The notes beneath the pieces were generated by a model, which was given only the letters and a program-made list of their open reading frames with translations, was not told the origin of the DNA and ran no database searches. Positions 9,201 through 59,319 of a stretch of DNA of 64,000 nt are shown here, piece by piece; the first letter of the stretch is position 1; every line of letters begins with the position of its first letter. Origin of the DNA: Octopus sinensis (Eukaryota); assembly GCF_006345805.1 (NCBI RefSeq), contig NW_021832430.1, positions 124,001 to 188,000 of the forward strand. Direction: 5' to 3'. Both the position numbers and the translations under genes were made by a program.

Positions 9201-9764
9201 CCAAATGCTGTAAACATTTTTTAAGAACGATCAAGGACATCGGATTCATCAAGTCTGGGTCCTCAACTTTAGACATTTCCAATCGGCATTGAATGTAATA
9301 AATAAGGAAACGAGTCTAGAAAGACGAGATGATCATAAAAAAATAACAAAATAATGAAAGGAGTCTTGTTCATTTGACATAACCAAAGAATCTCCAAGGA
9401 TTTGATCAGGGTTGTTGAGAGAAATGTCAAAATAATGTAAAAGACAAGTCGAAATGATTAAATCGTATTTCTTATGACATTTTTAAAATTTTTATACTTT
9501 AATAGGTCGAAGAAACTCGCAGATCTCGACCAATTTGTCGTAGAATTCAAAGATCGGGACTGATTTTTTAAAATTTTGTATTATTTCCACTATGGTATGG
9601 AAACTACAATTCAATTTGGAATACTTTGTTTACTGGTTGAATGCTGTGTTAGGCTTTAAATTCTTTCGGTTTTTGGTAAATTGGAATTTTATATCATTCA
9701 ATTGCTTGCTGGCACATTTGACTATGTTTTTATTGTCGTAAATGATGTGAGGATTCGACTTCAT
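227..9764 (-). CDS. CFAP54: Cilia- and flagella-associated protein 54 (central-pair C1d component), roughly 50 tiny introns
   Basis: Hand-spliced frame from ATG 9764 to TAA 227. Motifs VFESRKK..WPSNKTERLLNEMFDGPSAQFMAIIESL..RRLLETGP and LKPGLMYAFAVGAFDKNGNLINGKLGAQTKEI match recalled CFAP54 segments. Four introns appear to use GC donors. Confidence 0.85.
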
Positions 9765-10646: not shown

Positions 10647-12169
10647 ATGGTTCTTTCTTCAAAACAGACTCAAGACTTGTATTTTTAGTAGTTACAAATT
10701 TCCATAGAAACACAGCTATTGCTGCATATCTCAAAACCGCCGGCTTTCAAAATTCCTATCAAGAATTTGTGGCAGAAGCCAATATAGTTGGTCAACCTAA
10801 CTCACATTGGCAGGAAGAAAGTTCTTTAAATGAAACCAAATACGACGACTTGCTAAAAAATAAATGGACTTCTGTCATTAGACTTCAAAAAAGAGTTTTA
10901 AATGTTCATAATTTTAAGGTTTTGGAATTAGAATCGCTTGTGGGTAATGTCAGGAATGAAGTTTACTTGAACGGGGACATAAAACGGAAAAATAATTCCA
11001 AATATTTTATTCCAATGTTGCCTGCCAAGTTGGTTCTCACAGGCCACCAGGGAATTGTCACCAGAGTTGTATTCAACGTGGTGTTTAATCAGATAGCATC
11101 AGCAAGCCACGATGGAACTATAAAAGTAACTGCTATATTTTATTTATTTAAATTATATTTTTAATTAAAAAATAATATATTAAAAATATTTGGAAATGGT
11201 CATTTTATTTGAATTTAATATTTTTGGTGTGGGATTTTGAAAGTGGGGATTTTCAGTACACACTTAGAGGTCATACAGGCCCGATTCTGGATCTTTCCTT
11301 TGACTTTGACGGGAAAGTGTTAAGTATAATATCAATAAGTCACATTGAAGGTTCTTGTTCTTGTGATATGACTATAAAACTATGGGATTTGGAGTCAAGG
11401 ACATGTGAGAGGACACTGTACGGTCACGACCACACAGTGTCCTCAGTGACATATTCCTCGAGATATATTGTATCAGCCTCACGAGATGGGACTGTTAAAG
11501 TATGGGATGTTTCGAATGGGTTGATATTGGTAATCATTGGTAGGTATTGTGTTCGGTCTATGACAGGACATGATGGTTGGGTGAGGATGGCGAGGGTCAA
11601 TCGAGAGGAGAGTCTTATTGCCAGTTGTTCTGATGATAAGGTACTGCTCTGTGTGGTTATATTCCACTAGACTGTTCGTATTTGGCAATTCACATCGGGA
11701 GAGTGTCAGGTGGTGATGTACGGACATGAGCACTTTGTGGAATGTGTGGCTTGGGGTAGTTCACAGGCTAATTCGGATGTTTGAATTTGTTGGTTACGAT
11801 TTAGGCCTGTTTGGTGGCTTCGGGATCGAGGGATAGAACAGTTCGTCTGTGGAATGCCCATTCTGGTTTGTGTCTTTGGATCATGGTGAATTGTAAGAGG
11901 GGTAATGTCTAGTCTGGACATGACAATTGGGTTCGCTACGTCTGCTTTGAACCGGAAGGGAATATTCTAAGCAGTGTTGCTGATGATGGGTTTATGAAGG
12001 CTTGGCAAGTGGAGACTGGCACTTTGGTCAAATCTGTTGCACTTCATGACAATTTTGTGACTTGTTTTGGTAGATTTTTGTTTTTATAGCCGTAGAATAT
12101 CATCCGAAATTTCCTGTTGCTGTGAGTTGTAGTAATGACACGTCTGTCCGACTTTGGGACTGTCGATAA
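10647..12169 (+). CDS. PAFAH1B1: Lissencephaly-1 homolog (LisH + WD40 dynein regulator)
   Basis: MVLSSKQTQDLNTAIAAYL..KWTSVIRLQKRVLELES, WD repeats (GHDHTVSSV, SASRDGTVKVWDV, GHDNWVR), ends WDCR*. Introns of 24-30 nt plus one 101-nt intron with a TG acceptor. Confidence 0.95.
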
Positions 12170-16273: not shown

Positions 16274-16641
16274 TCGATACCACACAAAATTATTTCTTTT
16301 AAAATATTTGGTTTTCCATAATTAGCAAAAATTACAAAACTTAATTTTTAAATATTTTAAATCATATTGTACAATTTAATCAAAAGAATTAATCAAAAGC
16401 ACAAATTATATTAGCTTTCTTTACTGAAATAGGTCAAAAAAACTTATCAAAAACAGCAAATAATATATTTATCAGAATAATCTCTTGTTGAAAATTCAGA
16501 CCATCTTTGAAAATGCTAATTTTAGTCACTTTTGTAGGATTTTTGAAATATGCGTCCTCATAATTAAAAAAGGAAGCAATCGGATATAATTCGTTAAATC
16601 GATTTGATTATAAATAATTAGAATTCATTTATATCGCTGGA

Positions 16642-16827
16642 ATGCATAAAAATAGGGATAATTTCAAAAAGAACCCTGTTCTGAAAATTTCGAAAAACCC
16701 AACCATTGACAAGAAAAGAATATTCATTGTCTTTCTAGTTGTTGGAACGTCGATTTCTGCTGGTATGTTTGTCGGAAATAAATTATCGACTTTTCTTGAA
16801 GAATATGGAATTTGGAATCCAGATTAG
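16642..16827 (+). CDS. SMDT1: EMRE (essential MCU regulator)-like; 5' end uncertain
   Basis: Single TM with GxxxG (GMFVG) followed by NKLSTFLEEYGIWNPD, matching recalled EMRE KNFAALLEEHDIFVPE. Confidence 0.7.
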   Translation: MHKNRDNFKKNPVLKISKNPTIDKKRIFIVFLVVGTSISAGMFVGNKLSTFLEEYGIWNPD

Positions 16828-22305: not shown

Positions 22306-24512
22306 TTATAATAAAATGTGCTCATTCGTACTGGATTCCACAGTCCGAGACGACACCGACCCTGAGAGGACACATTTACGATTATTAGAGGAAACACTCT
22401 CCACGGATTGTCTACAACTGTAACACACCCACACACCTGTCAGCTTCCACCGTCTGATCTAACACATTACAGATCTCGGCAACAGCAAATGGTACGTCAA
22501 ACTGAGACTCTCCCATCGATTCGGGCATGAAAAATAAATTAGAAACCATTCCAGGATCCTTTTTCACACTACTCGTGCTGGAACAACTATTCCCACTCTT
22601 CTGTTGTGGCAGACACGTCGGAGAATTGGTGAAAGGAAGAGTAGCAGTGTCACAAAACGGTGGATTCAAAGGCAACTGAGTGTTTTGTTCAATGTGAGGT
22701 AAAAATGGCCCCGTAAGTGAAGAATTCATGCAGTTAGGCAAGGAGTTGGGAGGGACTGGAGGTGCTTGAATGACGGAAGACATCAATGGAGGGACTGTGT
22801 TTAGAAGTGATGATTGGATCACTGAACAGGAAGACACAACGGATGGACTATAATTAGTTCGAATGGACAAAGATTCCTCTTGTTGGGTAACTACAGGCAA
22901 GTTGTAGTCAGACACAGAATTGCCACTCCTCATAAGCGAATCCCTTGTTTGGTTAAGGAATCCGCGGAGACATGGATGTTGTGTATTAGGCCTGGCAAAT
23001 GGCTTATTGGACTCATTCAGTGCATTGGCCTTGGACAATGAACATTCCAATGACTTAATCCTGCCAACTTAGCACAGACGATTACTTATTAGACAGGTCG
23101 TGGATAGTCTGCTCATGTCGACCCACCACCAGTTGAGCACTCCTGTATCTTTCCTCCATCGTGTCTCTCTACAATTAGACCAATCTCGACATACTGCAGT
23201 CCGAACAGAGTTAATGAGGTCGTCGTACTCCTTAAGATGAGATCTACTCCTAACTCTCACAACAGTACAAGTGATTGGCTATCTTAACTTGACAATCCCT
23301 CAGTTGTAATTCGTTCTTATGTCTTTCCCTTTCCATCAATAATATTTCTGCTTTTTCCTCGTATATTTGACTAGACCTAACTATAAACAGGCTACTTCAT
23401 TGTAGAATTAAGAAGATCGTTGGTGAGAGACAGTTTACTCTCCAACTGACACTTTTCTTTGGTGAGGTCCTCCATTTGCCGGTCTCGGATTGAAAGTGTG
23501 TCCTCAGTCTCCTCCAATCGAACTAAAAGTAAACAGTGAGACCAACTTTGAAGAGTGCACTGAGATTGTTCACTCTGATTCAGTCTTTTAAGACAAGACA
23601 AATAATTTTCTCTTAATTCATGAGGACAGAGCAGATCTTTCACCGTTTTTTTAAGATCAACCACGTCGTCGTCTCTCCCATCCACGAAATACTGAGACAA
23701 TACATTCTCAATCAGCACTTCTTGTCTCTACACAATCAATTCACATAAACTACCTCCATGACTGCTTCTGATTTTTCCAATCTGCTCACATTGCTCATCA
23801 AACATTCGATTCTGTAGGTTTTTATTACGTAATTAATACTCGTTGTCCTTTGATGTCAGTTGACTGTTCAATTCGCAGATTTTTTGAACCAATTCTTCAT
23901 TTTTTGCGAGAATTTGATCAATCTCCAATTTCTTTTCAGAGAAGAGTGTCTTTATTTCATCCTTCTCACGTTGCTCGGCTTTATTTTGCTTTTCCAGGGA
24001 TTCTAGGGAAGCTTCGAGCTGTTGGCAGTGGTCACGTGTTTGTTGGTTGTCCTCAGAAAGAGAGGAATTCTGTTCGTTTAAAATAAAGGGGATTTGAACC
24101 ATTTCTTGTAGTTCGAGTATTTTTTCGTTCAGAGATTCGATTTGAGTCCCCAAATGTATAAATTCAAGTCGCTTATGGGCTAATTCCTTCTCAGCCTCGA
24201 GGTATTTCACTTTAAGGAGTTAAAAGTAAGAAAAACCTCTACGGGAGTCTAAAAGATTTGAAAAAATCTTAGAATGTTAACAAAGATGGTTACTTTGGGG
24301 ATTGACAGAAAAACAGTTAAGACCACCAAGCACAATATTGCACATATGGATGTGAATAACAGTCCTATCATCCATTGATCCATATTGGAGGTAATATACG
24401 AATTTTCTCCAATAAAATGATTCTTTTATTGAGTTTTATAAAATACTACTTTTATTATAACCCAGTTTCCAATTAAGTCGAATATATCCTTCGCATGTTT
24501 TAAAAGTAACAT
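22306..24512 (-). CDS. Single-TM, long coiled-coil, Pro/Ser-rich tail protein (copy 1, apparently intact; cTAGE5/TANGO1-like architecture)
   Basis: Spliced model: TM WMIGLLFTSICAILCLVVLTVFLSIP, heptad-rich middle, PPVPPNSLP-rich C-terminus, stop at 22306; start approximate. Confidence 0.65.
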
Positions 24513-26863
24513 TTTTATTTCTTCGAAAACCAACAAAACCCAATTACACGTAAATTAGGGTTTTCGACATTTATTAAAATTAATTAGATAAAATATTATT
24601 CATAATTATATTAAATAATAGCTTTATTTTCTAACAATAATCAGAAAGGCCAGATAATTTTTCTTCGTCTTATAACGGTTCCTTTCTAAAAATAAAGTGT
24701 GTTTCTTGCACATGTGGAATTCATAACAGATATGGTCCTACAAAAGTTCTAATATCATCATCATTTCTCTTATTCCTTTTCTCCTAAACGAAGAATTTGA
24801 TATCCTTGATTGAAACCCTCTGAATGATCTTCCATAGCTATTTATCAAGTATAAGATTCATATTATTCCGAGACAAAATATTTAATCAATTTAATTATAT
24901 ATGATTTTTCAAGCTCTAACGTCTAAAGCGCAAAAGTTAGTTTCAAAGTCCTGAAAATTCGCATTTGAACCGCATATAAACAAGCATTAACTTTTTTAAT
25001 GAAATCAAAAAAATATTTTTTAAAGAATCAAAGTTCTATTCGTAAATTGTTGTTTTCTGCCTGAAGAGAAAAATTTTAACCATTTTTCGATAAAAAGAGT
25101 TGCTAATGACATTTTTCAACTTGCTATTGACATTTTCATGAATAACAAGACGCTTCCATACAGATAATCTACTTTCTATTTATTATTATCTGCATATTTT
25201 TTTTCTTAGTTCAATGTTAGTATTAATATTTCGCCTTGCTGGTATTTTCACAATTTGTTTCAGTTTGTAGTGAAAGTCTTTAAATCTAAACTTGAATAAT
25301 TTGACTACGGTGGTGAAATAAATCTCAAATCGATAAAAAACGGTCAAAGATCTCTCCAAGTTCATTTTGTGGTTGAATATTCAAAATATCTTCAAAATCA
25401 AATAAAAACCGCAAAAAAAATTGGTAAATAATTGCGGAAAGCGGTTTAGTCAAGACTGCGGTGTATTTTCTAAAATGATTTGAATATTTTCTGAAAGCTT
25501 TTGATCTTAATTTGAACAGAAATATTGGGTTTAGACAGTATATTGAAAACTAGTGGCTTGTAATGCACTCTTTAATTTAAAATACAAAAGTAGTCTTTAA
25601 GATAGAAACAATAACTTGGTTTATTTTTTTAATTAGCTGTTATTAAAAAAGATTGGCATATCCTGATAAGAATGCGGATTTGGTTTTATAGTCTAAACTT
25701 GTATTGAAAGGATTTTTATAAAGCTTAAATGATGAAATAATAAACAGTATATATTTGTATTTTCCTAGTTGCTAATTATTGCTTAAATATTAAAATGATT
25801 GTTTGGTTTGCGAAAATCAAATAATTGTTTAATCAAGTATTAATAAACTTATTTCTATACAAAGAGGGTTTTTTTTTATTTAACCCAAGAATCACCAACA
25901 ATTAATTGAGTTAAAAGTCCATTAAATCATAATAGGTCGTCGGTTAAAATGAGTTTTAATTCTATAATATTTTCTGTTGTTTTTAATTAGTGATTCATTT
26001 TATTAGAAAACGTTCAAACCGAAAAATAAATGAAAATATTAGTAAATAATGTTATGAAACTGAATTAATCTTTGAGATTTAAAAAAGCTGAGGGCAACAA
26101 CTTTTTGATGGAAATTTTGTCTAATTCTTTTTCCTTATTACAATATGATTTCATTCAATATTTTCTCCAAACATTGAATATTAAAAATTGAATACCTCGA
26201 TAATAAACTGCCGACACCGACCGCATGGAAATAAAAATTCAGACGTGTCACTTGATACATAAATTTGAGTAACTTTTCTATTTCCATTTGCCACGGCGGT
26301 GCAGATTGCATTCACTTCTGCACATATAGTAAGCCCATATGAAACGTTTTCAACATTGCATCCTGAAACAGTCTCAAATAACAAATAACCTGAATATATG
26401 GATTCGTCACTGCACAAGACCGCACACCCAACTCTGAATTTGCTATAAGGAGAATATGAGCGTTTCTTTATTCTTAGTGCCTCTGCAATTGCCAGGTGTG
26501 CTAAAAATTATACATTAAATATACATATCATTCTTATCACTTAATTTGAATAATATATACAAGATTTAAATATAACAGAGACCATAAAATATTTTAACTT
26601 GTTTAAGAGATATTTTAATTATATTGAAACATAAAGCCTAATAACAATTTGAAACTTTTTTGGTTTTTATCTACTTTCTTGGGGTGTAGCGTAAATTATG
26701 ACCAAATCAGGATAATAGATTACACTGCCTTTAAATGTAATCAACTTGTTCTATGAGTCCTGGATTAAGATGATACAGAAAACTTTTCCTTTTTGTTTCT
26801 ATTATGCATGTTTTAATAAAATTAAGATGCCATTTTGTACAGTGACTGTATATAATATACCAA
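22316..26863. repeat. Segmental tandem duplication, copy 1
   Basis: Near-identical to 27420-31959, from atgtgctcattcg to atataccaa. Confidence 0.97.
26065..26531 (-). pseudogene. CDA: Cytidine deaminase, copy 1 (premature stop in last exon)
   Basis: Same as copy 2, but last exon reads FGENIE-TGA because of small indels near 26140-26157. Confidence 0.6.
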
Positions 26864-27419
26864 GAGAGATCCTAAGGGACCGATCTCGTGAAGAGGTCGA
26901 ATCACCTGAAAATAATTTTTTTTTAATTTTTTGGCTTGAAGGTTTTGGGGGACCTCATCATGTGAGTCGAGGACTTTCTGTTGTTCATTTTAACAAAAAC
27001 GCAGAAAATAATTTTTTTTTAATTTTTTGGCTTGAAGGTTTTGGGGGACCTCATCATGTGAGTCGAGGACTTTCTTGTTGTTCATTTTAAAAAAACGCAG
27101 AAAATAATTTTTTTTTAATTTTTTGGCTTGAAGGTTTTGGGGGACCTCATCATGAGGTCAAATCACCTTCATTATCTCATGAATATCTTTTTAAGCTCTT
27201 TATTGATTTCATGTTCCTAAGGGACCGATCTCGTGAAGAGGTCGAATCACCTTCATTATCTCATCATATTTAACCTCTTTATTGATTTCATGTTCCTAAG
27301 GGACCGATCTCTTTGAAGAGTTTGAATTCATCTTCTTTATCTTACACATTTCCTTTTTTAGATATATAAGTGTACACGGACAGACAGACAGACAGACACA
27401 CAACTTAGTGTTTTATATT
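26864..27419 (-). mobile_element. Helitron-like non-autonomous fragment with internal minisatellites, at the duplication junction
   Basis: About 96-bp unit x2.6 and a cctaagggaccgatctc unit x3. Minus-strand end taatataaaacactaagttgtgtgtctgtctgtctgtctgtcc resembles Helitron 5' ends with (CTGT)n, but the terminal TC is missing. Confidence 0.55.
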
Positions 27420-29610
27420 ATGTGCTCATTCGTACTGGATTCCACAGTCCGAGACGACACCGACCCTGAGAGGACACATTTACGATTATTAGAGGAAAAC
27501 TCTCCACGGATTGTCTACAACTGTAACCACCAACACACCTGTCAGCTTCCACCGTCTGATCTAACACATACAGATCTCGGCAACAGCAAATGGTACGTCA
27601 AACTGAGACTCTCCCATCGATTCGGGCATGAAAAATAAATTAGAAACCATTCCAGGATCCTTTTTCACACTACTCGTGCTGGAACAACTATTCCCACTCT
27701 TCTGTTGTGGCATACATGTCGGAGAATTGGTAAAAGGAAGAGTAGCAGTGTCACAAAACGGTGGATTCAAAGGCAACTGAGTGTTTTGTTCAATGTGAGG
27801 TAAGAATGGCACCGTAAGTGAAGAATTCATGCAGTTAGGCAAGGAGTTGGGAGGGACTGGGGGTTCTTGGATGACGGAAGACATCAATGGAGGGACTGTG
27901 TTTAGAAGTGATGATTGGATCACTGAACAGGAAGACACAACGGATGGACTATAATTAGTTCGAATGGACAAAGATTCCTCTTGTTGGGTAACTACAGGCA
28001 AGTTGTAGTCAGACACAGAATTGCCACTCCTCATAAGCGAATCCCTTGTTTGGTTAAGGAATCCGCGGAGACATGGATGTTGTGTATTAGGCCTGGCAAA
28101 TGGCTTATTGGACTCATTCAGTGCATTGGCCTTGGACAATGAACATTCCAATGACTTAATCCTGCCAACTTAGCACAGACGATTACTTATTAGACAGGTC
28201 GTGGATGGTCTGCTCATGTCGACCCACCACCAGTTGAGCACTCCTGTATCTTTCCTCCATCGTGTCTCTCTACAATTAGACCAATCTCGACATACTGCAG
28301 TCCGAACAGAGTTAATGAGGTCGTCGTACTCCTTAAGATGAGATCTACTCCTAACTCTCACAACAGTACAAGTGATTGGCTATCTTAACTTGACAATCCC
28401 TCAGTTGTAATTCGTTCTTATGTCTTTCCCTTTCCATCAATAATATTTCTGCTTTTTCCTCGTATATTTGACTAGACCTAACTATAAACAGACTACTTCA
28501 TTGTAGAATTAAGAAGATCATTGGTGAGAGACAGTTTACTCTCCAACTGACACTTTTCTTTGGTGAGATCCTCCATTTGCCGGTCTCGGATTGAAAGTGT
28601 GTCCTCAGTCTCCTCCAATCGAACTAAAAGTAAACAGTGAGACCAACTTTGAAGAGTGCACTGAGATTGTTCACTCTGATTCAGTCTTTTAAGACAAGAC
28701 AAATAATTTTCTCTTAATTCGTGAGGACAGAGCAGATCTTTCACCGTTTTTTTAAGATCAACCACGTCGTCGTCTCTCCCATCCACGAAATACTGAGACA
28801 ATACATTCTCAATCAGCACTTCTTGTCTCTACACAATCAATTCACATAAACTACCTCCATGACTGCTTCTGATTTTTCCAATCTGCTCACATTGCTCATC
28901 AAACATTCGATTCTGTAGGTTTTTATTACGTAATAATACTCGTTGTCCTTTGATGTCAGTTGACTGTTCAATTCGCAGATTTTTTGAACCAATTCTTCAT
29001 TTTTTGCGAGAATTTGATCAATCTCCAATTTTTTCAGAGAAGAGTGTCTTTATTTCATCCTTCTCACGTTGCTCGGCTTTATTTTGCTTTTCCAGGGATT
29101 CTAGGGAAGCTTCGAGCTGTTGGCAGTGGTCACGTGTTTGTTGGTTGTCCTCAGAAAGAGAGGAATTCTGTTCGTTTAAAATAAAGGGGATTTGAACCAT
29201 TTCTTGTAGTTCGAGTATTTTTTCGTTCAGAGATTCGATTTGAGTCCCCAAATGTATAAATTCAAGTCGCTTATGGGCTAATTCCTTCTCAGCCTCGAGA
29301 TATTTCACTTTAAAAAGTTAAAAGTAAGGAAAACCTCTACGGGAGTCTAAAAGATTTGAAAAAATCTTAGAATGTTAACAAAGATGGTTACTTTGGGGAT
29401 TGACAGAAAAACAGTTAAGACCACCAAGCACAATATTGCACATATGGATGTGAATAACAGTCCTATCATCCATTGATCCATATTGGAGGTAATATACGAA
29501 TTTTCTCCAATAAAATGATTCTTTTATTGAGTTTTATAAAATACTACTTTTATTATAACCCAGTTTCCAATTAAGTCGAATATATCCTTCGCATGTTTTA
29601 AAAAGGACAT
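27413..29610 (-). pseudogene. TM/coiled-coil gene, copy 2 (frameshifted)
   Basis: 2-nt deletion near 29030 (SEKIGD*) and 1-nt deletion near 27569 (AEICMC*) relative to copy 1. Confidence 0.6.
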
Positions 29611-31959
29611 TTTTATTTCTTCGAAAACCAACAAAACCCAATTACACGTAAATTAGGGTTTTCGACATTTATTAAAATTAATTAGATAAAATATTATTCA
29701 TAATTATATTAAATAATAGCTTTATTTTCTAACAATAATCAGAAAGGCCAGATAATTTTTCTTCGTCTCATAACGGTTCCTTTCTAAAAATAAAGTGTGT
29801 TTCTTGCACATGTGGAATTCATAACAGATATGGTCCTACAAAAGTTCTAATATCATCATTTCTCTTATTCCTTTTCTCCTAAACGAGGAATTTGATATCC
29901 TTGATTGAAACCCTCTGAGTGATCTTCCATAGCTATTTATCAAGTATAAGATTCATATTATTCCGAGACAAAATATTTAATCAATTTAATTATATATGAT
30001 TTTTCAAGCTCTAACGTCTAAAGCGCAAAAGTTAGTTTCAAAGTCCTGAAAATTCGCATTTGAACCGCATATAAACAAGCATTAACGTTTTTAATGAAAT
30101 CAAAAAAATATTTTTTTAAGAATCAAAGTTCTATTCGTAAATTGTTGTTTTCTGCCTGGAAGAGAAAAATATTTAACCATTTTTCGATAAAAAGAGTTGC
30201 TAATGACATTTTTCAACTTGCTATTGACATTTTCATGAATAACAAGACGCTTCCATACAGATAATCTACTTTCTATTTATTATTATCTGCATATTTTTTT
30301 TCTTAGTTCAATGTTAGTATTAATATTTCGCCTTGCTGGTATTTTCACAATTTGTTTCAGTTTGTAGTGAAAGTCTTTAAATCTAAACTTGAATAATTTG
30401 ACTACGGTGGTGAAATAAATCTCAAATCGATAAAAAACGGTCAAAGATCTCTCCAAGTTCATTTTGTGGTTGAATATTCAAAATATCTTCAAAATCAAAT
30501 AAAAACCGCAAAAAAAATTGGTAAATAATTGCGGAAAGCGGTTTAGTCAAGACTGCGGTGTATTTTCTAAAATGATTTGAATATTTTCTGAAAGCTTTTG
30601 ATCTTAATTTGAACAGAAATATTGGGTTTAGACAGTATATTGAAAACTAGTGGCTTGTAATGCACTCTTTAATTTAAAATACAAAAGTAGTCTTTAAGAT
30701 AGAAACAATAACTTGGTTTATTTTTTTAATTAGCGGTTATTAAAAAAGATTGGCATATCCTGATAAGAATGCGGATTTGGTTTTATAGTCTAAACTTGTA
30801 TTGAAAGGATTTTTATAAAGCTTAAAAGATGAAATAATAAACAGTATATATTTGTATTTTCCTAGTTGCTAATTATTGCTTAAATATTAAAATGATTGTT
30901 TGGTTTGCGAAAATCAAATAATTGTTTAATCAAGTATTAATAAACTTATTTCTATACAAAGAGGGTTTTTTTTTATTTAACCCAAGAATCACCAACAATT
31001 AATTGAGTTAAAAGTCCATTAAATCTTAATAGGTCGTCGGTTTAAAATGAGTTTTAATTCTATAATATTTTCTGTTGTTTTTAATTAGTGATTCATTTTA
31101 TTAGAAAACGTTCAAACCGAAAAATAAATGAAAATATTAGTAAATAATGTTATGAAACTGAATTAATCTTTGAGATTTAAAAAAGCTGAGGGCAACAACT
31201 TTTTGATGGAAATTTTGTCTAATTCTTTTTCCTTATTAACAGATATGATTTCAATATTTTCTCCAAACATTGAATATTAAAAACTGAATACCTCGATAAT
31301 AAACTGCCGACACCGACCGCATGGAAATAAAAATTCAGACGTGTCACTTGATACATAAATTTGAGTAACTTTTCTATTTCCATTTGCCACGGCGGTGCAG
31401 ATTGCATTCACTTCTGCACATATAGTAAGCCCATATGAAACGTTTTCAACATTGCATCCTGAAACAGTCTCAAATAACAAATAACCTGAATATATGGATT
31501 CGTCACTGCACAAGACCGCACACCCAACTCTGAATTTGCTATAAGGAGAATATGAGCGTTCCTTTATTCTTAGTGCCTCTGCAATTGCCAGGTGTGCTAA
31601 AAATTATACATTAAATATACATATCATTCTTATCACTTAATTTGAATAATATATACAAGATTTAAATATAACAGAGACCATAAAATATTTTAACTTGTTT
31701 AAGAGATATTTTAATTATATTGAAACATAAAGCCTAATAACAATTTGAAACTTTTTTGGTTTTTATCTACTTTCTTGGGGTGTAGCGTAAATTATGACCA
31801 AATCAGGATAATAGATTACACTGCCTTTAAATGTAATCAACTTGTTCTATGAGTCCTGGATTAAGATGATACAGAAAACTTTTCCTTTTTGTTTCTATTA
31901 TGCATGTTTTAATAAAATTAAGATGCCATTTTGTACAGTGACTGTATATAATATACCAA
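27420..31959. repeat. Segmental tandem duplication, copy 2
   Basis: Near-identical to 22316-26863. Confidence 0.97.
31163..31627 (-). CDS. CDA: Cytidine deaminase, copy 2 (intact if the GT-TG intron is spliced)
   Basis: SYSPYSKFRVGCAVL..GCNVENVSYGLTICAEVNAI..PCGRCRQFIIE|FGENIEIISVNKEKELDKISIKKLLPSAFLNLKD*. Confidence 0.92.
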
Positions 31960-35120: not shown

Positions 35121-35414
35121 TAAAGTATATATTTTGATTTAATAAACAAGGAAAGTGATTTTTTATATTGATATTAATATTAAAAAAAGTTTAAGCTAGG
35201 TGTAAAATTATCTCAATAATTTAATATCAAATACATGGTGTATGTGTTTTTCGAATACTTGAAATGTGTGTATCAATTTGTTTGTTATTTGTGACCTCTA
35301 TTAAGAAAATAGTTTTTTGTTATATATTCAAAGCATTATTTTAGATGGTTTAATTATAAAAATTAATTAACAAATAAATTATAAAATTAATTTATTTTAT
35401 GGTTGTTGGTCATT

Positions 35415-36921
35415 ATGTATACAGGAAGAAAATTTAACGAAGAAATATTCAATCAAAGTCTATTGGGTCAATTTAAAATGAGTCAAATAATTTAGAAATT
35501 GCATCATCTGAAATAGAACAAGTCCTAGACACTCAACTACGGACTCTCCTTGAGCATGTAGATCTGCCGGGTTTATTATTTTATAAATACTCCTTCTACT
35601 GTTTTGACCAAATAATTAAACTCATTGAAACTGGATTTGAAATTCCCAAACAGAGCTATCAAAAAATATTCAAAATTATCAAAATCAGTTTATTCAATCT
35701 CAAACATACCGGAAAATCTCAAATTCACCAATACGATATGCCCTGTCAATTCCGTGAGGTTTGAGTAGTTAAATCACTAAAACAGTGCGTTTATGATTTT
35801 CTGATTATTTTTCTCGACAAATCAAAAATTCACTGCCCGGAATGTTTGGATCTGGATTTTATATCCTCAGTTTAGTCACAATTTGTATCAAAGGTTGTTT
35901 TTGGATTCCAATCTTCCATCAAACAAGATTCAGAAAAACTTCAGAGAGTCCTTCATCGAATTTACATTTTATTTCCAAAACATCGACGTTTTATCAGGGA
36001 AAAAATCGCTCAAGTCCTTTCTGGGTATGGTTACATTCATAAATTGTTTTTTTAGGTGCTGTTACTTAGAAAATGAAGTTTTTGAAGGAATTTCAGAGTT
36101 GTTGGGATTTCTTTCGAGGTTTTTTGTCTCAAACACAAGCACAGTGTCGTTAACGGATTTTTGATTCCTCTGAAGAATGAGCACAGAGAATATTTTTTTA
36201 AATATATTCTGCCTCTCCATAGAAATGATAAATTGGTCTTTTTCTTTGAGAGTCTGAAGTATTGCGTAACTCAATTTGCGCTGAAAGATCGACGATTGTG
36301 TTCCAACGTAAGCTGAATCGTTTAAATATAGGTTCTGAGAACTCTGGTCAGATTCTGGCCAAGAAGTGACAGTTCTAAAGAGGTTATATTTTCATTATTC
36401 TTGGTAGTTAGTGTTTTTAGAGGAGGTTTTTGATATCCTCAATCTAGTTAGTTCCGAACAGTTTAGGGATGTGGCTGATGTGTTATTGTCCCGTCTTGCT
36501 TTGTGTGTGTCGTCACTACATTGTCAAGTGGCTGAGAAGGCTCTTTTTATGTGGCAAGAAGAGCACTTTATTCGACTAATCTCCACTAATGCTGATTTGT
36601 CGATACCAGCCTTTCTTCCGGCTATTGAAAAACTCAAGACTCATTGGAATTGGTTTCTACGTTTAACTCAAGTGGCAGTAATATTCAAATACTTGGCATT
36701 TTCGCTTTGAAAGTTCTCATTCAGTCGGATCAGATTCTGTATGACAAATATTACCGATCTTACGTGCAGCTACTTGAATCGTTTTTATTAGTCTTTATTT
36801 TAAAGTAAGGAGGAAAAGAACAGGATTAGAATGCAAAAATGGGAGCAGATAGAAGAAATGGCAAGGAAGAACAGCATTGATGTATTCTATATTCTTAATT
36901 ATCTCATAGTTTCAGCAATGA
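35415..36921 (+). CDS. PPP2R5: PP2A regulatory subunit B56 family, divergent
   Basis: VLHRIY, GISELLGFLSSVVNGFLIPLKNEH, FWPRSDSSKELVFLEEV, CVSSLHCQVAEKALFMW, KTHWN, KWEQIEEMARKN. Confidence 0.9.
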
Positions 36922-37139
36922 TATGTTTTTGCAAAATTTTTAAATAAGTCATTTTTAATTGACGTTTATTTAACTACAATAAACGTTTATAAGAAAGTGT
37001 TCCAAAAAATAAGCGAAGGATAAAATTCCAAAATGTGTATTGAAGATAAGATAAGTCTCCAAACACTAGTTTTGTCAAATTAGAGACTAGGACCACCTTT
37101 AATAATTTTAGATAAATACATTTTAAATGGTAAAAATTA

Positions 37140-38293
37140 CTATAATTCCAATAAACTAGGTTAAAGTCTTTTTTTTATAAAACTTGACGAGATGATCAAT
37201 AGTACAGCATTTAATACCTATAAATACAAAATTTAAAAACACCATTAATATTTTTCGGAAGATTGTCTCGACTACCTTTAATAAGCCACAAATCCTGTTT
37301 ATCAATCTTTTCCTTTTCCACGTATTTGAGGGTGAAATTGACAATAAAATCAGTAAAACTTGAACTATACAAACCAAATATAAACCCGGCAAATCGACAT
37401 GCTTTGTGATTCCCATATTCGCTGACCAGTTTTCTAAACAAGCATTATAACCCAAATGTACATCCGACAGTCCGAAGTGATAAACCGTATTATCTCTCGT
37501 GCGATAAAACTAGACTTTTTCAATTCATCCAATATGATTATCACTAATTTGACATTCAGTCAACAACTTGCAAGGGGGATGACAATAATACTGTCCACTG
37601 AGGATATCATGTCGCCATGCTTACCTGACCGTTCCAATAACGAGAACAATGTGAATACCACTATTTTGGGCCTCCGAAGACCGCCTTCGGTCATACGAAT
37701 CTACCAAAGCATTAATAACGATACACTCTCGTAGCTTTTCCCCAACACTTCCATGATAGAGCTTCTTTTTGTAGCCGCTGTGAATATCCCCGGAAACTTA
37801 GGGGAAGAATGTCCAACTTCATTTAATAAAAAATCTACATATTCTTTAATAATTACATAATAATCTTTTAAATTTCTCAGCTTGGGTGATTTGGTGATTT
37901 ATTTCTTCATCGTTGAAAAGGGCAGTAGCAACTTGCGTAAAAAAGGCAACTCCTGAGTAAAGCAGACTGATATAATCCATTTTCAGTTCAGGGTCTTCAC
38001 TTATGTGTTCTCTGCATAAAAATATGATATTGTGGTAACAAATTGTCCACACTTCCGGTATAAATTGTTCAAAATTTAAAGAATTTAATATTTTTATACA
38101 TTTTTGCTCGATCCTATGTTAGTTTAGGGGATTTAAACTCAATTCGTTTTGATATTAGTTCAGAGTCAAATAACTTTTTAGGGTCTTGTCCACATGCTTC
38201 ACTGTTTGCTTCAAATGTGTGTAGTAATTCTAAAAGCCTAAAAATAACACGCGTTTGATACTCTTTGTTGTTTGGATATAGATAAAAACTCAT
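37140..38293 (-). CDS. Uncharacterised multi-exon protein
   Basis: Open exons joined by several 22-28-nt GT-AG introns; no confident family; start approximate. Confidence 0.55.
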
Positions 38294-38519
38294 TCAATAA
38301 ATTATAATATGCCCTTATTGTTTCAGTTTATACTCGAATAAAAATACAGTTATTAATGACATAATGTAGGATGATAAACTGAATGCAATAATTTTAAAAT
38401 AATGAACCACAAAAGATAAGTTGGTTAAAAATTAATATTTATTATATAATCAATTTAAAACATTAAAAACTATTCGATGTTGCAGAATATGATCCTTCAT
38501 TAACATCTTCGCATAATAT

Positions 38520-39635
38520 TTCATTTGGTAAATTTTATGTCTAAAAATTCTTGGTCGTTAATCTGGTTTTCTAATCTAACCTTTTTGAAATTGAGGTACA
38601 ATTTTTTTGTTACCTTAACGTCACACGAAATCTGATTTAAATGTTTAAAGCAATTTTGAATTGTGCTCATTGTCACATCATACGATAAATCACAATAAAC
38701 TATTGCATTAGCCACAGTAATTTTATGATTAAAAGATATCTGCGCCGTTTTCGACCATATTACTGATTTTATTTAGTTTATATTTTGAAAAATGAGTTTT
38801 AAAGGATTTTATAATCCCCAAATCAATAGGTTGAAAATTCTCCATAGCAGTTTTAAATTAATTCAATGTTTTTTGGAATATAAGCAGTTTGGTGAGCAGA
38901 GAATTTATCGATCAATCAGAGTATCTTTGTTCTCTTACTTATTATCTCATGATCTCAATCATAAAACCAAGAACTAAAAATCTGCCTTGTCATCCAAGCC
39001 TTTCTAAAAGATCTGCAGTCAACGATTGATTTTGGATTAAAATTTTTGAAATAGGGAGGGGCTTTAAACTTTCCAATCACGATTGGTTTTTGTTTTATTG
39101 AACAAGTAAATTTACAGCATCGCATAATTGAAAGACGGTCAACATATAAAACAGTAAAGTCCTTCTTGTTTTTTGGAAATGTTTTCTAAATAATGTTCTT
39201 GATTTAATTTTTTTTAATTCTTCCAGCCACTCAATCGATGGTTTAAAATTATCAACTTTTAACTCTTCGAAATTTTTTTGGCTTTTTAAATAATAATCCG
39301 TTAACGACACTGTGCTTATGTTTGAGACAAATTTCACCTCTAGCTTCCATTTTTCAATTTAAATAATAATGCTATCATTTCATATTTCAAATTTAATTGT
39401 CTTTTATTTGTTGAATTCAATTTTGTAATATCCGAAATTTTTTCAGCGTTTTTTAAAATATAACTTACCCTTCTTGTCGCAATTCGTGTTTTAAATTTAT
39501 TGGAAAGCCGACCAGGAATATTATAACAGGACCTGTTTTTATTACTTTGACGATAAGTTATAATTCCATCCTTTTGTTCTCTGGTTAATCTAGTATATTT
39601 AGTCTATTTAGGAACATTAAATCTTTACAAGCCAT
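38520..39635 (-). mobile_element. Degenerate pogo/Tigger (CENP-B-like HTH + DDE_1) transposase
   Basis: RLTREQKDGII HTH; FKPSIEWLEELK; KPIVIGKFKAP..KAWMTRQIFSSWF..LIDKFSAH..FQPIDLGIIKSFKTHF, with in-frame stops. Confidence 0.85.
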
Positions 39636-40175: not shown

Positions 40176-41339
40176 ATGCCAAATATAGTCTCTATTAATA
40201 TTAGTGGACGAAAATTTGAACTTTCTGCAATTTACTTTAAACAATTTCCTACAACATTATTGGGAAATCCATTGAAAATAAATAAATATTTTGATTTGAG
40301 TAAAAACGAATATTTTTTTGACCGACATCGAGACAGTTTTGAAGGAATTATATATTATTATCAAAGTAATGGGAAACTAAAAAAACCAGAAAATGTCGAC
40401 TTGGATATATTCACAAAAGAAGTAGAATTTTTTGAAATTGATCGTCGATCGATCGAAAATATGTATGCTGATGAAGGAAACTTTCCATATTATGCTCCTA
40501 AAAAAATAAATATTCCAGAAAATAGTGTTTTGCGATTTGTGTGGATAGCTTTGAAGTTTCCTTATTTATCTATGAGTGGGAAGATTATTAGAATATTTTC
40601 GAATTTTGTAATTTTACTTTCCATTGCAAATTTATGTTTGCGTACTTACCCACAAAATAGTATAAGCATAGAAAGTATTTCCAAAATTGATTATATTTTT
40701 GCAAATGAAGTTTTATTTACATCGTATTTTACACTTGAAATGATTATTCGTTTATTTTTATTTCATACAATCATTTCCGAATGTTTTTCTGGAAAATTCA
40801 TAATTGACATTTTAAGCATATTACCATTATACATACAAACCATTTTTGAACTAATATATGAGAATGGATTAATCAAACACAGTATACTTTATTCCATTAA
40901 TCAGATTTGTCTAGTAATTCAAATATTTCGAATATTCAAGTTTTCAAATAATTTGATTTCTCTAGGAATACTAAGGAAAACAATGCTTTATTCACTTGAA
41001 AGTCTGACACAAATGTTACTTTATTTTATGGTTGCAATTCTTTTTTATTCGTCGTTAATTTATTATGCGGAATACACTAATTCCAATAGTGAGTTTGATA
41101 GCATTCCGGATGCATTTTGGTGGGCTATTATTACGTTGACAACTGTTGGCTATGGAGATAAGCGACCGTTAGGAATTTATGGAAAAATGATAGCAAGTCT
41201 GTGCTCTCTTTCTGGAATATTAATTATATCATTCCCAATTCCAGTGATAATTTCTAAATTTACATTTTTTTATGAGAAAAAATCTAAAACGACATCAGTA
41301 CAGTGCAAAAAATTGAAAGAGCTTCTTAATATCTATTGA
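40176..41339 (+). CDS. Shaker/Kv1-family potassium channel, single exon, degenerate S4
   Basis: T1 domain (INISGRKFE, FPTTLLGNP, EYFFDRHRDSFEGIIYYYQSNGKL), S1-S6, pore SIPDAFWWAIITLTTVGYGD, PIP hinge. Confidence 0.95.
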   Translation: MPNIVSINISGRKFELSAIYFKQFPTTLLGNPLKINKYFDLSKNEYFFDRHRDSFEGIIYYYQSNGKLKKPENVDLDIFTKEVEFFEIDRRSIENMYADEGNFPYYAPKKINIPENSVLRFVWIALKFPYLSMSGKIIRIFSNFVILLSIANLCLRTYPQNSISIESISKIDYIFANEVLFTSYFTLEMIIRLFLFHTIISECFSGKFIIDILSILPLYIQTIFELIYENGLIKHSILYSINQICLVIQIFRIFKFSNNLISLGILRKTMLYSLESLTQMLLYFMVAILFYSSLIYYAEYTNSNSEFDSIPDAFWWAIITLTTVGYGDKRPLGIYGKMIASLCSLSGILIISFPIPVIISKFTFFYEKKSKTTSVQCKKLKELLNIY

Positions 41340-42934: not shown

Positions 42935-43299
42935 AAAGTAAATAATGTTAGAATGACTGCAAATTGACATTTTACTGTTTAGTAAATTGTTTCGATAATC
43001 ATAATTTCAAAAATAATCTTATAAAACCCATTTGATATAAATACAAGATTTCGCGTCAAAAATTATTTTCCATTACACCTCATATACGGGATCCGGGTTT
43101 CTTTTTTGCACGGTAGCGCTTGAAAAGCAGTGAAATAATGTGTATTCAAATGATCTATGTATTTGCCAAACCATAATGAATACAATTCTTTGCCTTTTTG
43201 GCAATTACTTGCATTTATTCATCATTTTCTTGTTCATATTTGCGTATTTCTTAATTAGAGAAAAATTGATATATGTCTTCACTCTGTTTTCCCTTGAAA

Positions 43300-44230
43300 A
43301 ATTTTGACAAAATTCCGTCCCAGGTCATAACGGCAGGGACAATTTTTTCTTTCCCGGTGGATCGCCCCAGTTAATTTCCTAGCAATTTGTAGAATTTTTC
43401 CACTTCGACGTATTGAGACAATTTTGTAAAGTGATCCCCACCTCGATAAGTGTAATTTTGTTGCTCGATTTGTCGTGAAATAAATGTCAAGCTTGTTATA
43501 CAGGATTTGGGATAGCAAGTTTTCTCCAGGACAGGGAATTCTTGCAAGTCTTCTAGCCTTCCATCAAGTTGTACTTTGTAAGCCAATTCAATGCGAAACG
43601 GCTTGTCTTTTTCAGCTGTTCAATAAAGTAGTCACTCTCCTCCGTATAACCCCTGTAGTTATATGTGAAGACTAGTTTTACACACGTTCTGTACACGTAG
43701 ATATATGTTTCCGAATCCAGATGAAACCTGGTAAGCTTTTAAGAATCCTCACGCTCCTCTTTCTCTGATTTGTTACGCGGTCGGCCTACGAGCCACGACA
43801 GTCGATAATTACTTCAAAGTAATGTAAATTCAAGCTCTTGGAGAGATCCATAGCATAACCACACGACACCGACGACTCCCTCTTCACATTTATGAAATGG
43901 TGCTCTTCTCAGGTGCTAGGGTCAAACCTTTCTCTACTGTCCACTTCTTTAGCATGGCAATGTATGACTCAAGTCGTCTTCAAGACTGGAAAATCCTTTT
44001 TGATGACCAAGATATCATTAGCATATATGATGGGTTTGCCAGTAAGTACAGGCGGCAGGGGAATCTCCGCCAGAACAAGATTGAAAAGAAGTGGACCCAA
44101 AAAAGATTTATCATAGTCAATGCTCGTATTAAAAGTTCTGGGGCCTTCTTTAACAATATCTGAGGAATGTAGTCAAAACCAGGTGATGATTGTCAGGAAA
44201 TTTTCCTCAAAAAACATCTCAACAACATTT
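43300..44230 (-). mobile_element. Degenerate APE-type LINE reverse transcriptase
   Basis: SSPGFDYIPQILLK, LGPLLFNLVLAEIPLPP..IIYANDI, LTLAPEKST across frameshifts. Confidence 0.7.
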
Positions 44231-45052
44231 AAATAGTGCTTTAGAGACGATCAATTCTTCCGGTGTCGCCGACTGACCTCTTTTGGGAGCGCCCCAACCT
44301 TCATTAAAGGAGACGCAGCATTTCCAGGTATTTCGAGAGTTTGTTCCTCATGCGAAATTTCATTTGTCATCGGTTTTCTTTTGTCCGTTTTTCGTACTGA
44401 AGTCTCCTTCACTGTACTCATTTTCTGCAAAACACAGATCGGATCTGTTTGCATGCCTAATTTGACACTCATTGAGACTCTGTTTGTCGATGTATCCAGG
44501 AACTCAGCGTTTTTTAAGATCTCGCAAGTTAATTGACACTCTCAGTTTTTTTCTCTAGCGATGTACCCATTGATTGCTCTGATAATTTGTTTTTTGTAAT
44601 TAAATAATAAATTTTTGAATATATACGTAAAAATTGAAATTTTACTCTACATTATAGAATGTTTAATGAGCATATTCAACAGAAAGCTAATATCATTCTA
44701 ATCTAACTGTATTCAAAATAAGTTCACTTTTTCTCGACATTTTTTATTGAAAAAATCGATTTTTTACTGTTTCATAACATAAACATCATTTAATGTACAA
44801 TGATTAATGAAAATTGAGAAATATGTTGTATAATAGAGTAGAATACATCTTGGGTAGATAGGCTGAGCCTGGTTGTTTTATTTGATTGAAGTTGAGTCTT
44901 TATCACCAAGAAGTTTACGTATTTTTGAATTCATCTAGGCAAAGAGGACAATCGTTCAAAAACGGATAAGGCAACCAAGAATTTGTCAAATTTTGTGAAA
45001 AATTTGAACAACTAAAAAACGTTTGTGAAAAATTAGAATTTGAAGAACTAAC

Positions 45053-45215
45053 GGCCATCTGTGCACTCATCGCTCCAGAGATCCCAGGGAATTTATATTC
45101 TTAATTCAGAAGATCTCGCTGGCTGTTTTACGCGGGAATTGCTAGCTGTTACCGGTACTTAATAACTAGCTTATTCCGTTTTCCATTTAGTTATAAATGT
45201 TTAATAGCAAAAAAA
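45053..45215 (+). mobile_element. Short 3' fragment of CRE-like element
   Basis: RSRDPREFIFLIQKISLAVLRGNC* followed by an A-rich tail. Confidence 0.7.
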
Positions 45216-45289
45216 ACTAAAGAACCAAATATACTTATTAGTGATTAACATAGAACTGGTTTTTAGTAGAAAAATAAGTTAAGAAAATT

Positions 45290-46060
45290 CTCATCTCTCA
45301 ACTGCGCTTGCCAGCCGCATACGGGAGACTGGCTCAATGCACTCCCTACCCCTAGTACGGGACATCTCTTGGACAACGAATCCTTACGGATTGGTGTCTG
45401 CTTACGCTTGGGCCTGGACATCTGTCAGCCCCACCCATGCCGGTGCGGGTCCACGATCTCTCCGAACGGTTTGCACGCCCTCTCGTGCAAGAAGAGTGCT
45501 GGCAGAATTCCTCGCCACACTCACCTCAATGACGTCGTGAAAAGGGCTCTAGAGTCGGCAGGTTTCCCCTCCACTCTAGAGCCAGTCGGTCTCTGCCGGA
45601 GTGATGGAAAGCGTCCTGACGGGATGACTACCTTCCCTTTCAGGGAAGGCAAGTCCCTGATTTGGGACGCAACTTGTGTTGACTCGTTCTCCGCGTCGGT
45701 GTTACTCAAGTCCATCACTAACCCGGGTTCTGCCAGTGCTCAGGCTGAGGAGGCTAAGAGGTCGAAGTATGGAAATATTTCGGACTCTTACGAGTTTGTC
45801 CCTCTCGCCTTCGAAACATCTGGAATTGTCGGCAGGTCTGCGACTCGCCTTCTTGCCGACATTGCCAGGAAAATTGCCAAGAAGACCAACGACCGGAGGG
45901 AGACGAGCTGGCTCTTCCAGAGAATCTCGGTCGCAGTGCTCCGCGGAAACTGCCACTCGATACACAGTGCGGCGACTTTGAGCTGACCTCCAGGCTCTTT
46001 ATTAATTCGTGTATAACTTATTCCCCATTTTGAAAAAAAGTCTCGTTAGACAAAAAAAAA
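45290..46060 (+). mobile_element. 5'-truncated CRE-like non-LTR retrotransposon (zinc knuckle + REL endonuclease) with poly(A) and 14-bp TSD
   Basis: Intact frame CRCG..HALSC..RH..KRPDG..WDATCVD..KY..FETSG..QRISVAVLRGN; aagttaagaaaatt at 45276-45289 and 46060-46073. Confidence 0.92.
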
Positions 46061-53163: not shown

Positions 53164-53620
53164 GTTCAATGTTGTTGATTGAATATTAAAAATGTTTTAA
53201 TTTTAGCTTCGCGTGTCACGAATTGATATATTTTTTTGATCTTGCTAAAAAAACAATTTTAAAACCCACGTGGAAAGACATCTTAGCGGTAAAGAATTTT
53301 CCCAATATTTCATTCTTAAGCGAAGAAAATATGAGTTATTTCTTTATAGAGATTACCGTCCCGAATTATTATTTAAGTACTCAGTAGATTTTGGAACTTT
53401 TAGCTTTCTTCACTTAAACCGACGTAAAAAGTTGATCACAATGTTTTTCTTAGTGGCAGGAAAAGTCGAGTTTTAGAGTGATTCCAAAAGATTATGTTAT
53501 TTGGACATTCTAAGAAAATTTGCTAAATATTCTCAAGGGACCCAAAATATTAGTCTAAGAGAAATCATGATCGTCGTTCGGAAACTTATAAAATCATACC
53601 TTCGTCACGAAATATACAAA

Positions 53621-59010: not shown

Positions 59011-59019
59011 GTGAAACGG

Positions 59020-59250: not shown

Positions 59251-59319
59251 AGAGGAGAAAATTGTGAAAATGGATTATTATTAGTTAACCCCGGGATCAC
59301 AGGAAAGAGGAATAGTAAT

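What the first reader, a model, noticed from the sequence alone, without database searches (positions are those of the whole stretch)
31268..31291. 24-nt GT-TG intron in cytidine deaminase, conserved in both duplicates
CRQFIIE|FGENI joins perfectly only by removing gtattcagtttttaatattcaatg, which contains an in-frame TAA. The next AG downstream (7 nt) shifts the frame. Copy 1 (26172-26195) differs at one internal base but keeps the caatg end, arguing against a random sequencing error. The E|FG junction matches my recollection of an intron position in vertebrate CDA.
Basis: partly seen in the sequence, partly recalled or inferred. Interest (0 to 1): 0.75.

Follow-up and report, generated by a model that had tools for sequence, protein, structure and literature searches.

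The report
Tiny intron ending TG, not AG
In a parasitic animal with very small introns, one 24-base intron ends in TG instead of the near-universal AG, and a second gene nearby shows the same; this could be a rare rule-breaking splice signal, but an ordinary intron shifted by 7 bases would also give a whole protein, so RNA data must decide.

Summary
The sequence is as described: a 24-nt GT...TG segment with an in-frame TAA (minus strand, 31291-31268) in an intact cytidine deaminase gene. Removing it ties for the best of 3796 excisions (176.9 bits). The host is an animal with 22-31-nt introns, probably a dicyemid. (1) A canonical GT-AG 24-nt intron slid by 7 nt (31284-31261) also keeps the frame (170.9 bits). 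(2) The copies are 98.9% identical, copy 1 is frameshifted, and its one intronic difference removes exactly that slid donor. New support: LIS1 needs a GT-TG intron (11126-11226) at a human intron position and has no acceptable canonical rescue (87.0 vs 72.2 bits). The two TG introns share TTTAATATT 13-14 nt before their ends, found in 0 of 60 canonical introns (post hoc, shuffle P 0.006). The LIS1 TG could be a dropped base, and TG shows no window-wide excess. Verdict: TG use is about even odds, via the U2 spliceosome in a TG-AG tandem. A new variant of a known kind; needs RNA-seq.

The parts
31268..31291 (-). Cytidine deaminase copy 2, intron 3 at the ancestral E|FG junction: 24 nt, GT...TG, phase 0, in-frame TAA
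   Evidence: tied best of 3796 excisions, 176.9 bits
31261..31284 (-). Rival canonical intron: 24 nt GT...GAG, slid 7 nt, in frame, gives EVFK instead of EFGE
   Evidence: 170.9 bits; donor flank 25th and acceptor flank 10th percentile of 59 canonical introns
31273..31281 (-). TTTAATATT, branch-point-like element starting 14 nt before the TG end; shared with the LIS1 TG intron
   Evidence: branch-point role inferred
31163..31627 (-). Cytidine deaminase gene, copy 2, intact: exons 31627-31621 (start codon uncertain), 31596-31486, 31458-31292, 31267-31163; 129 aa; zinc motifs CAE and PCGRC present
31459..31485 (-). Intron 2, 27 nt, GT-AG (positive control for the excision scan)
   Evidence: ties for best of 3246 excisions; next canonical option 165.0 vs 176.9 bits
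31597..31620 (-). Intron 1, 24 nt, GT-AG
   Evidence: inferred from open frame
26172..26195 (-). Copy 1 of the GT...TG intron; base 26188 differs and removes the slid GT donor
26139..26153 (-). Copy 1 lesions just after the intron: a 4-nt duplication and two 1-nt deletions; every splice tested ends early as assembled
22316..31959 (.). Tandem duplication of about 4.55 kb (22316-26863 and 27420-31959, period about 5.1 kb, 98.9% identical) with a coiled-coil gene and the deaminase; all 13 indels can be placed in the middle unit, 25062-29851
11126..11226 (+). Second GT...TG intron: LIS1 (PAFAH1B1 orthologue) intron 3, 101 nt, phase 0, TIK|VWDFESG, no AG inside, next AG 17 nt downstream and out of frame
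11214..11222 (+). TTTAATATT starting 13 nt before the LIS1 TG end

Best explanation
The 24-nt segment is the ancestral intron and is removed at its TG end by the ordinary U2 spliceosome, probably alongside other products. Shown: the DNA anatomy, the best-fitting protein, and a second gene needing the same kind of end. Inferred: in this lineage introns are defined across the intron by a narrow length (22-31 nt) with almost no consensus beyond GT and AG. A strong donor (GAG|GTA) and a TTTAAT branch-point-like element 9-11 nt before the end fix the geometry. The AG 7 nt downstream can license the first step, as proposed for human TG-AG tandems. At the second step the terminal G still pairs with the first intron G, and U in place of A at -2 is tolerated. 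Splicing to the downstream AG from the same donor gives a truncated protein, so TG is the only in-frame product in copy 1's intron type and in LIS1, and one of two in copy 2.
For: GT-TG ties for best of 3796 excisions; all 4 named animal homologues and the human and mouse chains read EFG, and none of 15 has V after the E. The TG parse uses a donor flank at the 83rd and an acceptor flank at the 46th percentile, against 25th and 10th for the slid parse. A slid in-frame GT-AG alternative occurs by chance at 4 of 60 canonical introns, so its presence needs no special cause. LIS1 needs GT-TG: 87.0 bits, tied best of 3254 open-frame excisions, best canonical 72.2 and deleting 8 conserved residues; the junction is K133|V134, and a human acceptor variant c.400-1 is listed at that place (PMC9472359). 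Both non-canonical ends among 62 curated introns are TG, the commonest non-canonical acceptor in fly (23 of 79, PMC4528330). They share a 9-nt element that 0 of 60 canonical introns hold; 0 of 1770 canonical pairs share 9 nt; shuffle P 0.0064. Both have an AG within 28 nt, the human limit (PMC2374985). Yeast lacking Prp18 uses AUG and UUG ends most efficiently among BG sites (PMC10711555), the two triplets seen here.
Against: No transcript was seen. Copy 2 has a canonical in-frame alternative of equally common length, only 6 bits worse. The 4-nt duplication in copy 1 kills the TG product (101 aa) but would put a canonical 31-nt splice in frame (128 aa, 165.9 bits) if the two 1-nt deletions are errors, so each copy has a canonical way out. 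In human, TG was never the sole acceptor and AG>TG mutants used neighbouring AGs; in fly 22 of 23 GT-TG introns have a similar alternative splice. An AG within 28 nt is not diagnostic: 40 of 59 canonical introns have one. The LIS1 end could be a canonical TTTTTAG with the A lost: its flank is at the 97th percentile, the intron is among the 0.03% most AT-rich 101-nt stretches, and the same kind of loss is seen between the duplicates at 25074. A gene finder over 17 regions showed no excess of TG (7 uses) over AA 7, AT 9, TA 10, TT 12. The shared motif was found after the fact in AT-rich DNA and occurs 16 times in the window.
Confidence: 0.5

Rival explanations
1. Intron sliding. The ancestral AG mutated to TG and is dead; copy 2 is spliced at the canonical GT-AG pair 7 nt downstream (31284-31261), giving EVFK. 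Copy 1 lost that donor and is dead, or is rescued by its 4-nt duplication plus a canonical 31-nt splice.
For: Fully canonical, 24 nt (9 of 62 curated introns have this length), removes the TAA, 170.9 bits. GTT donors are the commonest class (28 of 59) and GAG ends occur (3 of 59). The single intronic difference between copies is this donor's G. Copy 1's duplication restores frame for the canonical AG. At a penalty of 5 nats the gene finder drops TG here.
Against: Replaces conserved EFG by EVF, seen in none of 15 homologues. Both sites are weak, and the stronger upstream donor would compete and frameshift. FG codons are intact, so the slide must be very recent. Sliding is rare (PMC5010894 abstract). 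Leaves LIS1 and the shared motif unexplained.
Confidence: 0.27
2. A recently damaged or leaky gene: the acceptor mutation is not well rescued, and most transcripts retain the intron (99 aa) or use the 31-nt splice (108 aa).
For: Copy 1 is broken as assembled. Very short introns can splice inefficiently (microsporidia, cited in PMC13644364). The only coding substitution between the deaminase copies is non-synonymous.
Against: Copy 2 has intact zinc motifs, no other lesion and a normal C-terminus. Cannot apply to LIS1, whose 402-aa frame is otherwise intact and whose role in dynein function is essential (own knowledge).
Confidence: 0.12
3. Assembly error: the true acceptors are AG and a base was dropped or miscalled.
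For: The assembly shows indel noise: 12 of 13 indels between the copies are bases missing from the middle unit, including non-coding ones, while the coiled-coil gene copies differ by 11 synonymous and 4 non-synonymous changes, so its frameshifts look like errors. Cathepsin has a 1-nt frameshift. Credible for LIS1 (about 0.3).
Against: For the deaminase both diverged copies read TG, and copy 2 lies outside the noisy unit. Only 1 frameshift was found in the 10 curated genes.
Confidence: 0.07
4. No intron: TAA is read through or recoded, adding 8 residues; or the segment is cut by the minor (U12) spliceosome or a non-spliceosomal enzyme.
For: 24 nt is a multiple of 3. Non-canonical ends occur in U12 introns, including one mouse GT-TG (PMC1557818), and the TTTTTAAT element loosely resembles a U12 branch site (recalled).
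Against: TAA ends LIS1, calcyphosin-like and the deaminase itself at their normal C-termini. Neither donor has ATCC at +3 to +6 (GTATTC, GTAACT). The hairpin over the junction is not unusual (z -0.59) and does not flank both ends.
Confidence: 0.04

Closest known systems
Human TG 3' splice sites in U2 introns (GNAS and 35 other genes; Szafranski 2007, PMC2374985; abstract and two sections read)
   Same: GT donor, TG end, an AG within 28 nt (7 and 17 nt here).
   Different: There TG is always an alternative beside a working AG, in long introns. Here the neighbouring AG is out of frame from the same donor, so TG would be the productive site, and one intron is 24 nt.
Drosophila GT-TG introns (23 among about 60,000; PMC4528330 Table 3, passages read); ARS2 GT-TG conserved in human and mouse (PMC1557818, passages read)
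   Same: TG is the commonest non-canonical acceptor and can be the preferred one (bifid).
   Different: 22 of 23 have a similar alternative splice, and the rate is about 0.04%; here 2 of 62 hand-curated introns (2 of about 180 predicted).
Ultra-short introns of dicyemids and myxobolid myxozoans (PMC13644364 whole text; PMC6543705, PMC6736024, PMC2222250 passages)
   Same: Length 22-31 nt, median 26 (reported medians 24 and 27, mean 26.2, for three Dicyema datasets); signals reduced to GT and AG; weak A-rich patch before the end.
   Different: None of these texts mentions non-AG acceptors in the parts seen; the supplement text of PMC13644364 has 0 hits for non-canonical or GT-TG (its figures could not be seen).
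BG 3' splice sites in yeast lacking Prp18 (PMC10711555, passages read)
   Same: AUG and UUG ends are usable, helped by upstream U tracts and by pairing with the first intron base.
   Different: A mutant, low-fidelity state; whether this organism has lost or altered Prp18 was not tested.

Membership tests
U2-type GT-TG intron (TG-AG tandem) | GT donor with U2-type context and TG as last two bases at a homology-fixed junction | tested here: met
U2-type GT-TG intron (TG-AG tandem) | An AG within 28 nt of the TG | tested here: met
   7 nt and 17 nt; not diagnostic, 40 of 59 canonical introns also have one
U2-type GT-TG intron (TG-AG tandem) | Transcripts joined at the TG | not testable with these tools
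   no transcript-derived relative found: best deaminase identity 57%; the one near-identical LIS1 hit is a gene prediction that retains introns
U2-type GT-TG intron (TG-AG tandem) | Genome error or polymorphism excluded | tested here: inconclusive
   TG in two diverged deaminase copies; LIS1 is a single copy in extremely AT-rich DNA; no reads available
U2-type GT-TG intron (TG-AG tandem) | TG conserved in orthologous introns of related species | not testable with these tools
   no related eukaryotic genome in the open collections
U12-type non-canonical intron | 5' site with ATCC at +3 to +6 | tested here: not met
   GTATTC and GTAACT; motif per PMC1557818
Ultra-short animal intron (dicyemid/myxobolid type) | Most introns under about 30 nt with reduced signals | tested here: met
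   61 of 62 curated introns are 22-31 nt, median 26; calcyphosin-like spliced at three of them aligns without gaps to Owenia, 147 of 208 identical
Ultra-short animal intron (dicyemid/myxobolid type) | Host is a dicyemid | tested here: inconclusive
   best named hits are annelid and mollusc; CFAP54 and CCDC34 present; one-gene tree unresolved among spiralians
Homotetrameric cytidine deaminase (PF00383) | Zinc ligands CxE and PCxxC with CDA fold spacing | tested here: met

The most novel reading that the evidence does not exclude
This animal lineage has a small, regular class of introns (about 1-3%) whose only productive acceptor is TG, marked by a TTTAATATT branch-point element that makes the A of AG dispensable. 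Annotation pipelines have hidden it because they allow only canonical ends.
Probability: 0.25. Interest if true: 0.8.

Novelty: new variant of a known kind. Interest (0 to 1): 0.52.

Why it matters
TG acceptors are known, but in human they were reported only as alternatives beside a working AG. A TG that is the sole productive acceptor in conserved genes, in introns at the lower size limit of animal splicing, would test what the spliceosome needs at the 3' end: the A, the G, or just distance from the branch point. It is a cheap test, since junction reads in existing RNA-seq decide it. It also matters for annotation: a public predicted model of this LIS1 locus (P0370) skips the whole first WD repeat to reach a canonical AG. 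If the slid intron is used instead, the locus is a rare snapshot of intron sliding in progress, with a different canonical escape in each copy.

Tried and rejected
Ab initio gene finding could not decide splice ends. A generous intron prior over-predicted (268 introns) and a strict one under-predicted (58). The calibrated version recovered 51 of 56 curated introns with 12 false ones, and showed no TG excess over control dinucleotides; its start for one gene was wrong. The first LIS1 junction scan was biased by a sliding window and was redone with fixed ends. A homologue search for full-length LIS1 was swamped by unrelated WD40 proteins. The exhaustive search gave one near-identical hit, P0370, which is a prediction from the same locus and so is not independent evidence. 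No transcript-derived deaminase or calcyphosin of this organism was found (best identities 57% and 79%). A cluster look-up to name the organism was not available, so the species is unconfirmed. A 10-bp hairpin over the deaminase acceptor ranks 2 of 62 among acceptor windows but is not significant against shuffles (z -0.59). Rfam found 0 matches in the window. A paper search for the human CDA intron position found nothing. One RPL27 intron end was mistyped by a base and corrected; percentiles use 59 introns. Three cathepsin introns after its frameshift carried the wrong phase in the chance test. Curated introns come from 10 of 17 gene regions; only deaminase, calcyphosin-like and part of LIS1 were checked against aligned homologues, the rest by open frame, Pfam hits and recalled family motifs. 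Searches for prior reports of TG acceptors in dicyemids, myxozoans or ultra-short introns found none; subscription papers such as Ogino 2010 were not seen.

Full report
Setting. The window is AT-rich animal DNA (GC 26-44% per 2 kb). It holds CFAP54, LIS1, a WASP-like gene, TFIIA, a calcyphosin-like gene, cytidine deaminase, a PP2A B56 subunit, a voltage-gated potassium channel, CCDC34, a cathepsin and a zinc-finger gene (Pfam; PDB), plus syntaxin-like and RPL27 genes named from recalled motifs. I curated 62 introns in 10 genes. 61 are 22-31 nt, median 26; 60 are GT-AG and 2 are GT-TG (with one end corrected). As a control, the calcyphosin-like gene spliced at three tiny GT-AG introns gives 208 aa that align without gaps to Owenia, 147 identical. 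Introns this short are reported in animals only for myxobolids and dicyemids (PMC13644364, whole text). Best named hits are annelid and mollusc and ciliary genes are present, so a dicyemid is the likely host. The one-gene tree does not resolve this. TAA is a stop codon here, ending three genes at their normal C-termini.

The observation. The deaminase gene is on the minus strand, 31627-31163, with three introns of 24, 27 and 24 nt. The third starts GT, ends TG and contains an in-frame TAA. I scored every single excision of 15-69 nt around it against a profile of 15 named deaminases. GT-TG ties for first of 3796 at 176.9 bits; retention scores 145.2. The same scan picks the GT-AG intron 2 correctly. 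All four named animal homologues and the human and mouse chains read EFG at this point. The claim that vertebrates have an intron here could not be checked.

A canonical GT-AG intron of the same length lies 7 nt downstream (31284-31261). It removes the TAA and gives a 129-aa frame with EVFK in place of EFGE, at 170.9 bits. Such slid alternatives exist by chance at 4 of 60 canonical introns. Its sites are weak but within range: donor flank 25th and acceptor flank 10th percentile, against 83rd and 46th for the TG parse. The one intronic base that differs in copy 1 is the G of this donor.

The duplicate. The copies are 98.9% identical over 4553 nt, close to the 1.24% heterozygosity reported for Dicyema japonicum (PMC6736024, passages), so they may be alleles placed in tandem. 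Sharing two bases is expected either way. They are separately diverged, though: 21 transitions and 10 transversions, and 11 synonymous against 4 non-synonymous changes in 574 codons of the neighbouring coiled-coil gene. Of 13 indels, 12 are bases missing from the middle unit 25062-29851, including non-coding ones. That points to a lower-quality stretch rather than selection (inference). The thirteenth is a 4-nt duplication in deaminase copy 1. With it, the TG product stops at 101 aa; a canonical 31-nt splice would be in frame (128 aa, 165.9 bits) if the two 1-nt deletions are errors. So each copy has a possible canonical escape, which counts against the TG reading. If all three indels are errors, copy 1 depends on TG, which counts for it.

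A second case. LIS1 intron 3 (plus strand, 11126-11226, 101 nt) starts GT, contains no AG and ends TG. The exons meet at K133|V134 of the solved chains, and a human acceptor variant c.400-1 is listed at that position (PMC9472359, one passage). Among 3254 open-frame excisions GT-TG ties for first at 87.0 bits. The best canonical option scores 72.2 and deletes conserved residues. A public predicted model of this locus skips the first WD repeat to reach an AG (P0370); it retains two tiny introns, so it is not transcript evidence. The LIS1 end could be an error: it looks like an excellent canonical acceptor missing its A (97th percentile), sits in the most AT-rich 0.03% of the window, and a lone A was lost next to a T run between the duplicates at 25074. 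Outside the duplication only one frameshift was seen in the 10 curated genes, in cathepsin.

Shared signal. Both TG introns carry TTTAATATT starting 14 and 13 nt before the end. None of 60 canonical introns has it. None of 1770 canonical pairs, or of 66 AT-rich pairs, shares 9 nt in register. Shuffles give P 0.0064. The motif was noticed after the fact and occurs 16 times in the window, so this is suggestive only. It contains TTAAT, present in 4 of 60 canonical introns, which fits a branch point (inference; PMC13644364 also suggests conserved A residues before the end). A gene finder allowed to use other ends did not favour TG over control dinucleotides across 17 regions and about 180 introns, so TG ends are rare here, not a general relaxation.

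Mechanism, most likely (0.5). The U2 spliceosome defines these introns by length and branch point. The nearby AG may license step one, as proposed for human TG-AG tandems within 28 nt (PMC2374985, abstract and two sections). At step two the last G pairs with the first G and U at -2 is tolerated; yeast lacking Prp18 uses AUG and UUG ends in this way (PMC10711555, passages). These steps are inferred. Rivals: slid canonical intron 0.27; damaged gene 0.12; assembly error 0.07 for the deaminase (about 0.3 for LIS1); read-through, U12 or enzyme cutting 0.04. A mixture of the first two products is quite possible.

Comparison and novelty. GT-TG introns are known: 36 human genes, always as alternatives; 23 in fly, 22 with a similar alternative (PMC4528330); ARS2 conserved in human and mouse (PMC1557818); 24% of human non-canonical sites of all kinds were constitutive (PMC4176328, passages). 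The locus works like a TG-AG tandem and meets the sequence criteria, but membership needs transcripts, which I could not test. I found no report of TG acceptors in dicyemids, myxozoans or ultra-short introns (searches; a 489-species survey has 0 mentions of GT-TG in its main text, PMC7072748). Supplement figures and subscription papers were not seen.

Verdict. Observation partly confirmed; interpretation about even odds. New variant of a known kind, interest 0.52. The bolder reading, a motif-marked class of sole TG acceptors in this lineage, has probability about 0.25 and would deserve 0.8.

Noticed in passing
window 11126-11226 (+): LIS1 GT-TG intron, also the only long intron (101 nt, 89% AT) among 62 curated.
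   Followed up: yes
window 25062-29851: Middle unit of the tandem duplication holds all indels and frameshifts (coiled-coil gene copy 2, deaminase copy 1), although substitutions are mostly synonymous; probably low-quality sequence or a second haplotype.
   Followed up: partly
window 26864-27414: Spacer between the duplicates made of 96-nt and 79-nt tandem repeats and a short GACA microsatellite.
   Followed up: no
window about 49882 (+): Cathepsin gene has a 1-nt frameshift in an A run between [12 protein letters not shown] and NNKGCFGG; error or broken gene.
   Followed up: partly
window 31250-31274 (-): 10-bp hairpin with the TG in the stem and the downstream AG in the loop; 12 bp in copy 1. 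Not significant against shuffles, but second most stable of 62 acceptor windows; a near-palindrome could have driven the acceptor mutation.
   Followed up: partly
window 300-9380 (-): CFAP54 with dozens of tiny introns, several apparently GC-AG (for example near 8881, 5111, 2936, 2201; from gene-finder output and by eye, not homology-checked).
   Followed up: no
window 40176-41339 (+): Intronless Shaker-like potassium channel (BTB_2 plus Ion_trans) in a lineage thought to lack neurons; one copy among intron-rich neighbours.
   Followed up: no
window 16500-16827 (+): Short gene whose C-terminus resembles the mitochondrial calcium uniporter regulator EMRE (recalled; no Pfam hit).
   Followed up: no
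window 35399-36940 (+) and 37060-38850 (-): A diverged PP2A B56 gene and, tail to tail with it, a multi-intron gene with no Pfam match; another unmatched gene at 52155-53480 (+) and an Ig-like gene cut by the window end at 62950-64000 (+).
   Followed up: no
window 43200-46000 and 56500-62500: Decayed retroelement and transposase fragments (RVT_1 hit at 58425-58925; others by recalled motifs).
   Followed up: no
window 54769-55074 (-): 153-nt in-frame tandem repeat inside a C2H2 zinc-finger gene.
   Followed up: no
window 36123-36162 and 39292-39331: 40-nt inverted repeat, 95% complementary; one arm covers a B56 intron and exon edge.
   Followed up: no
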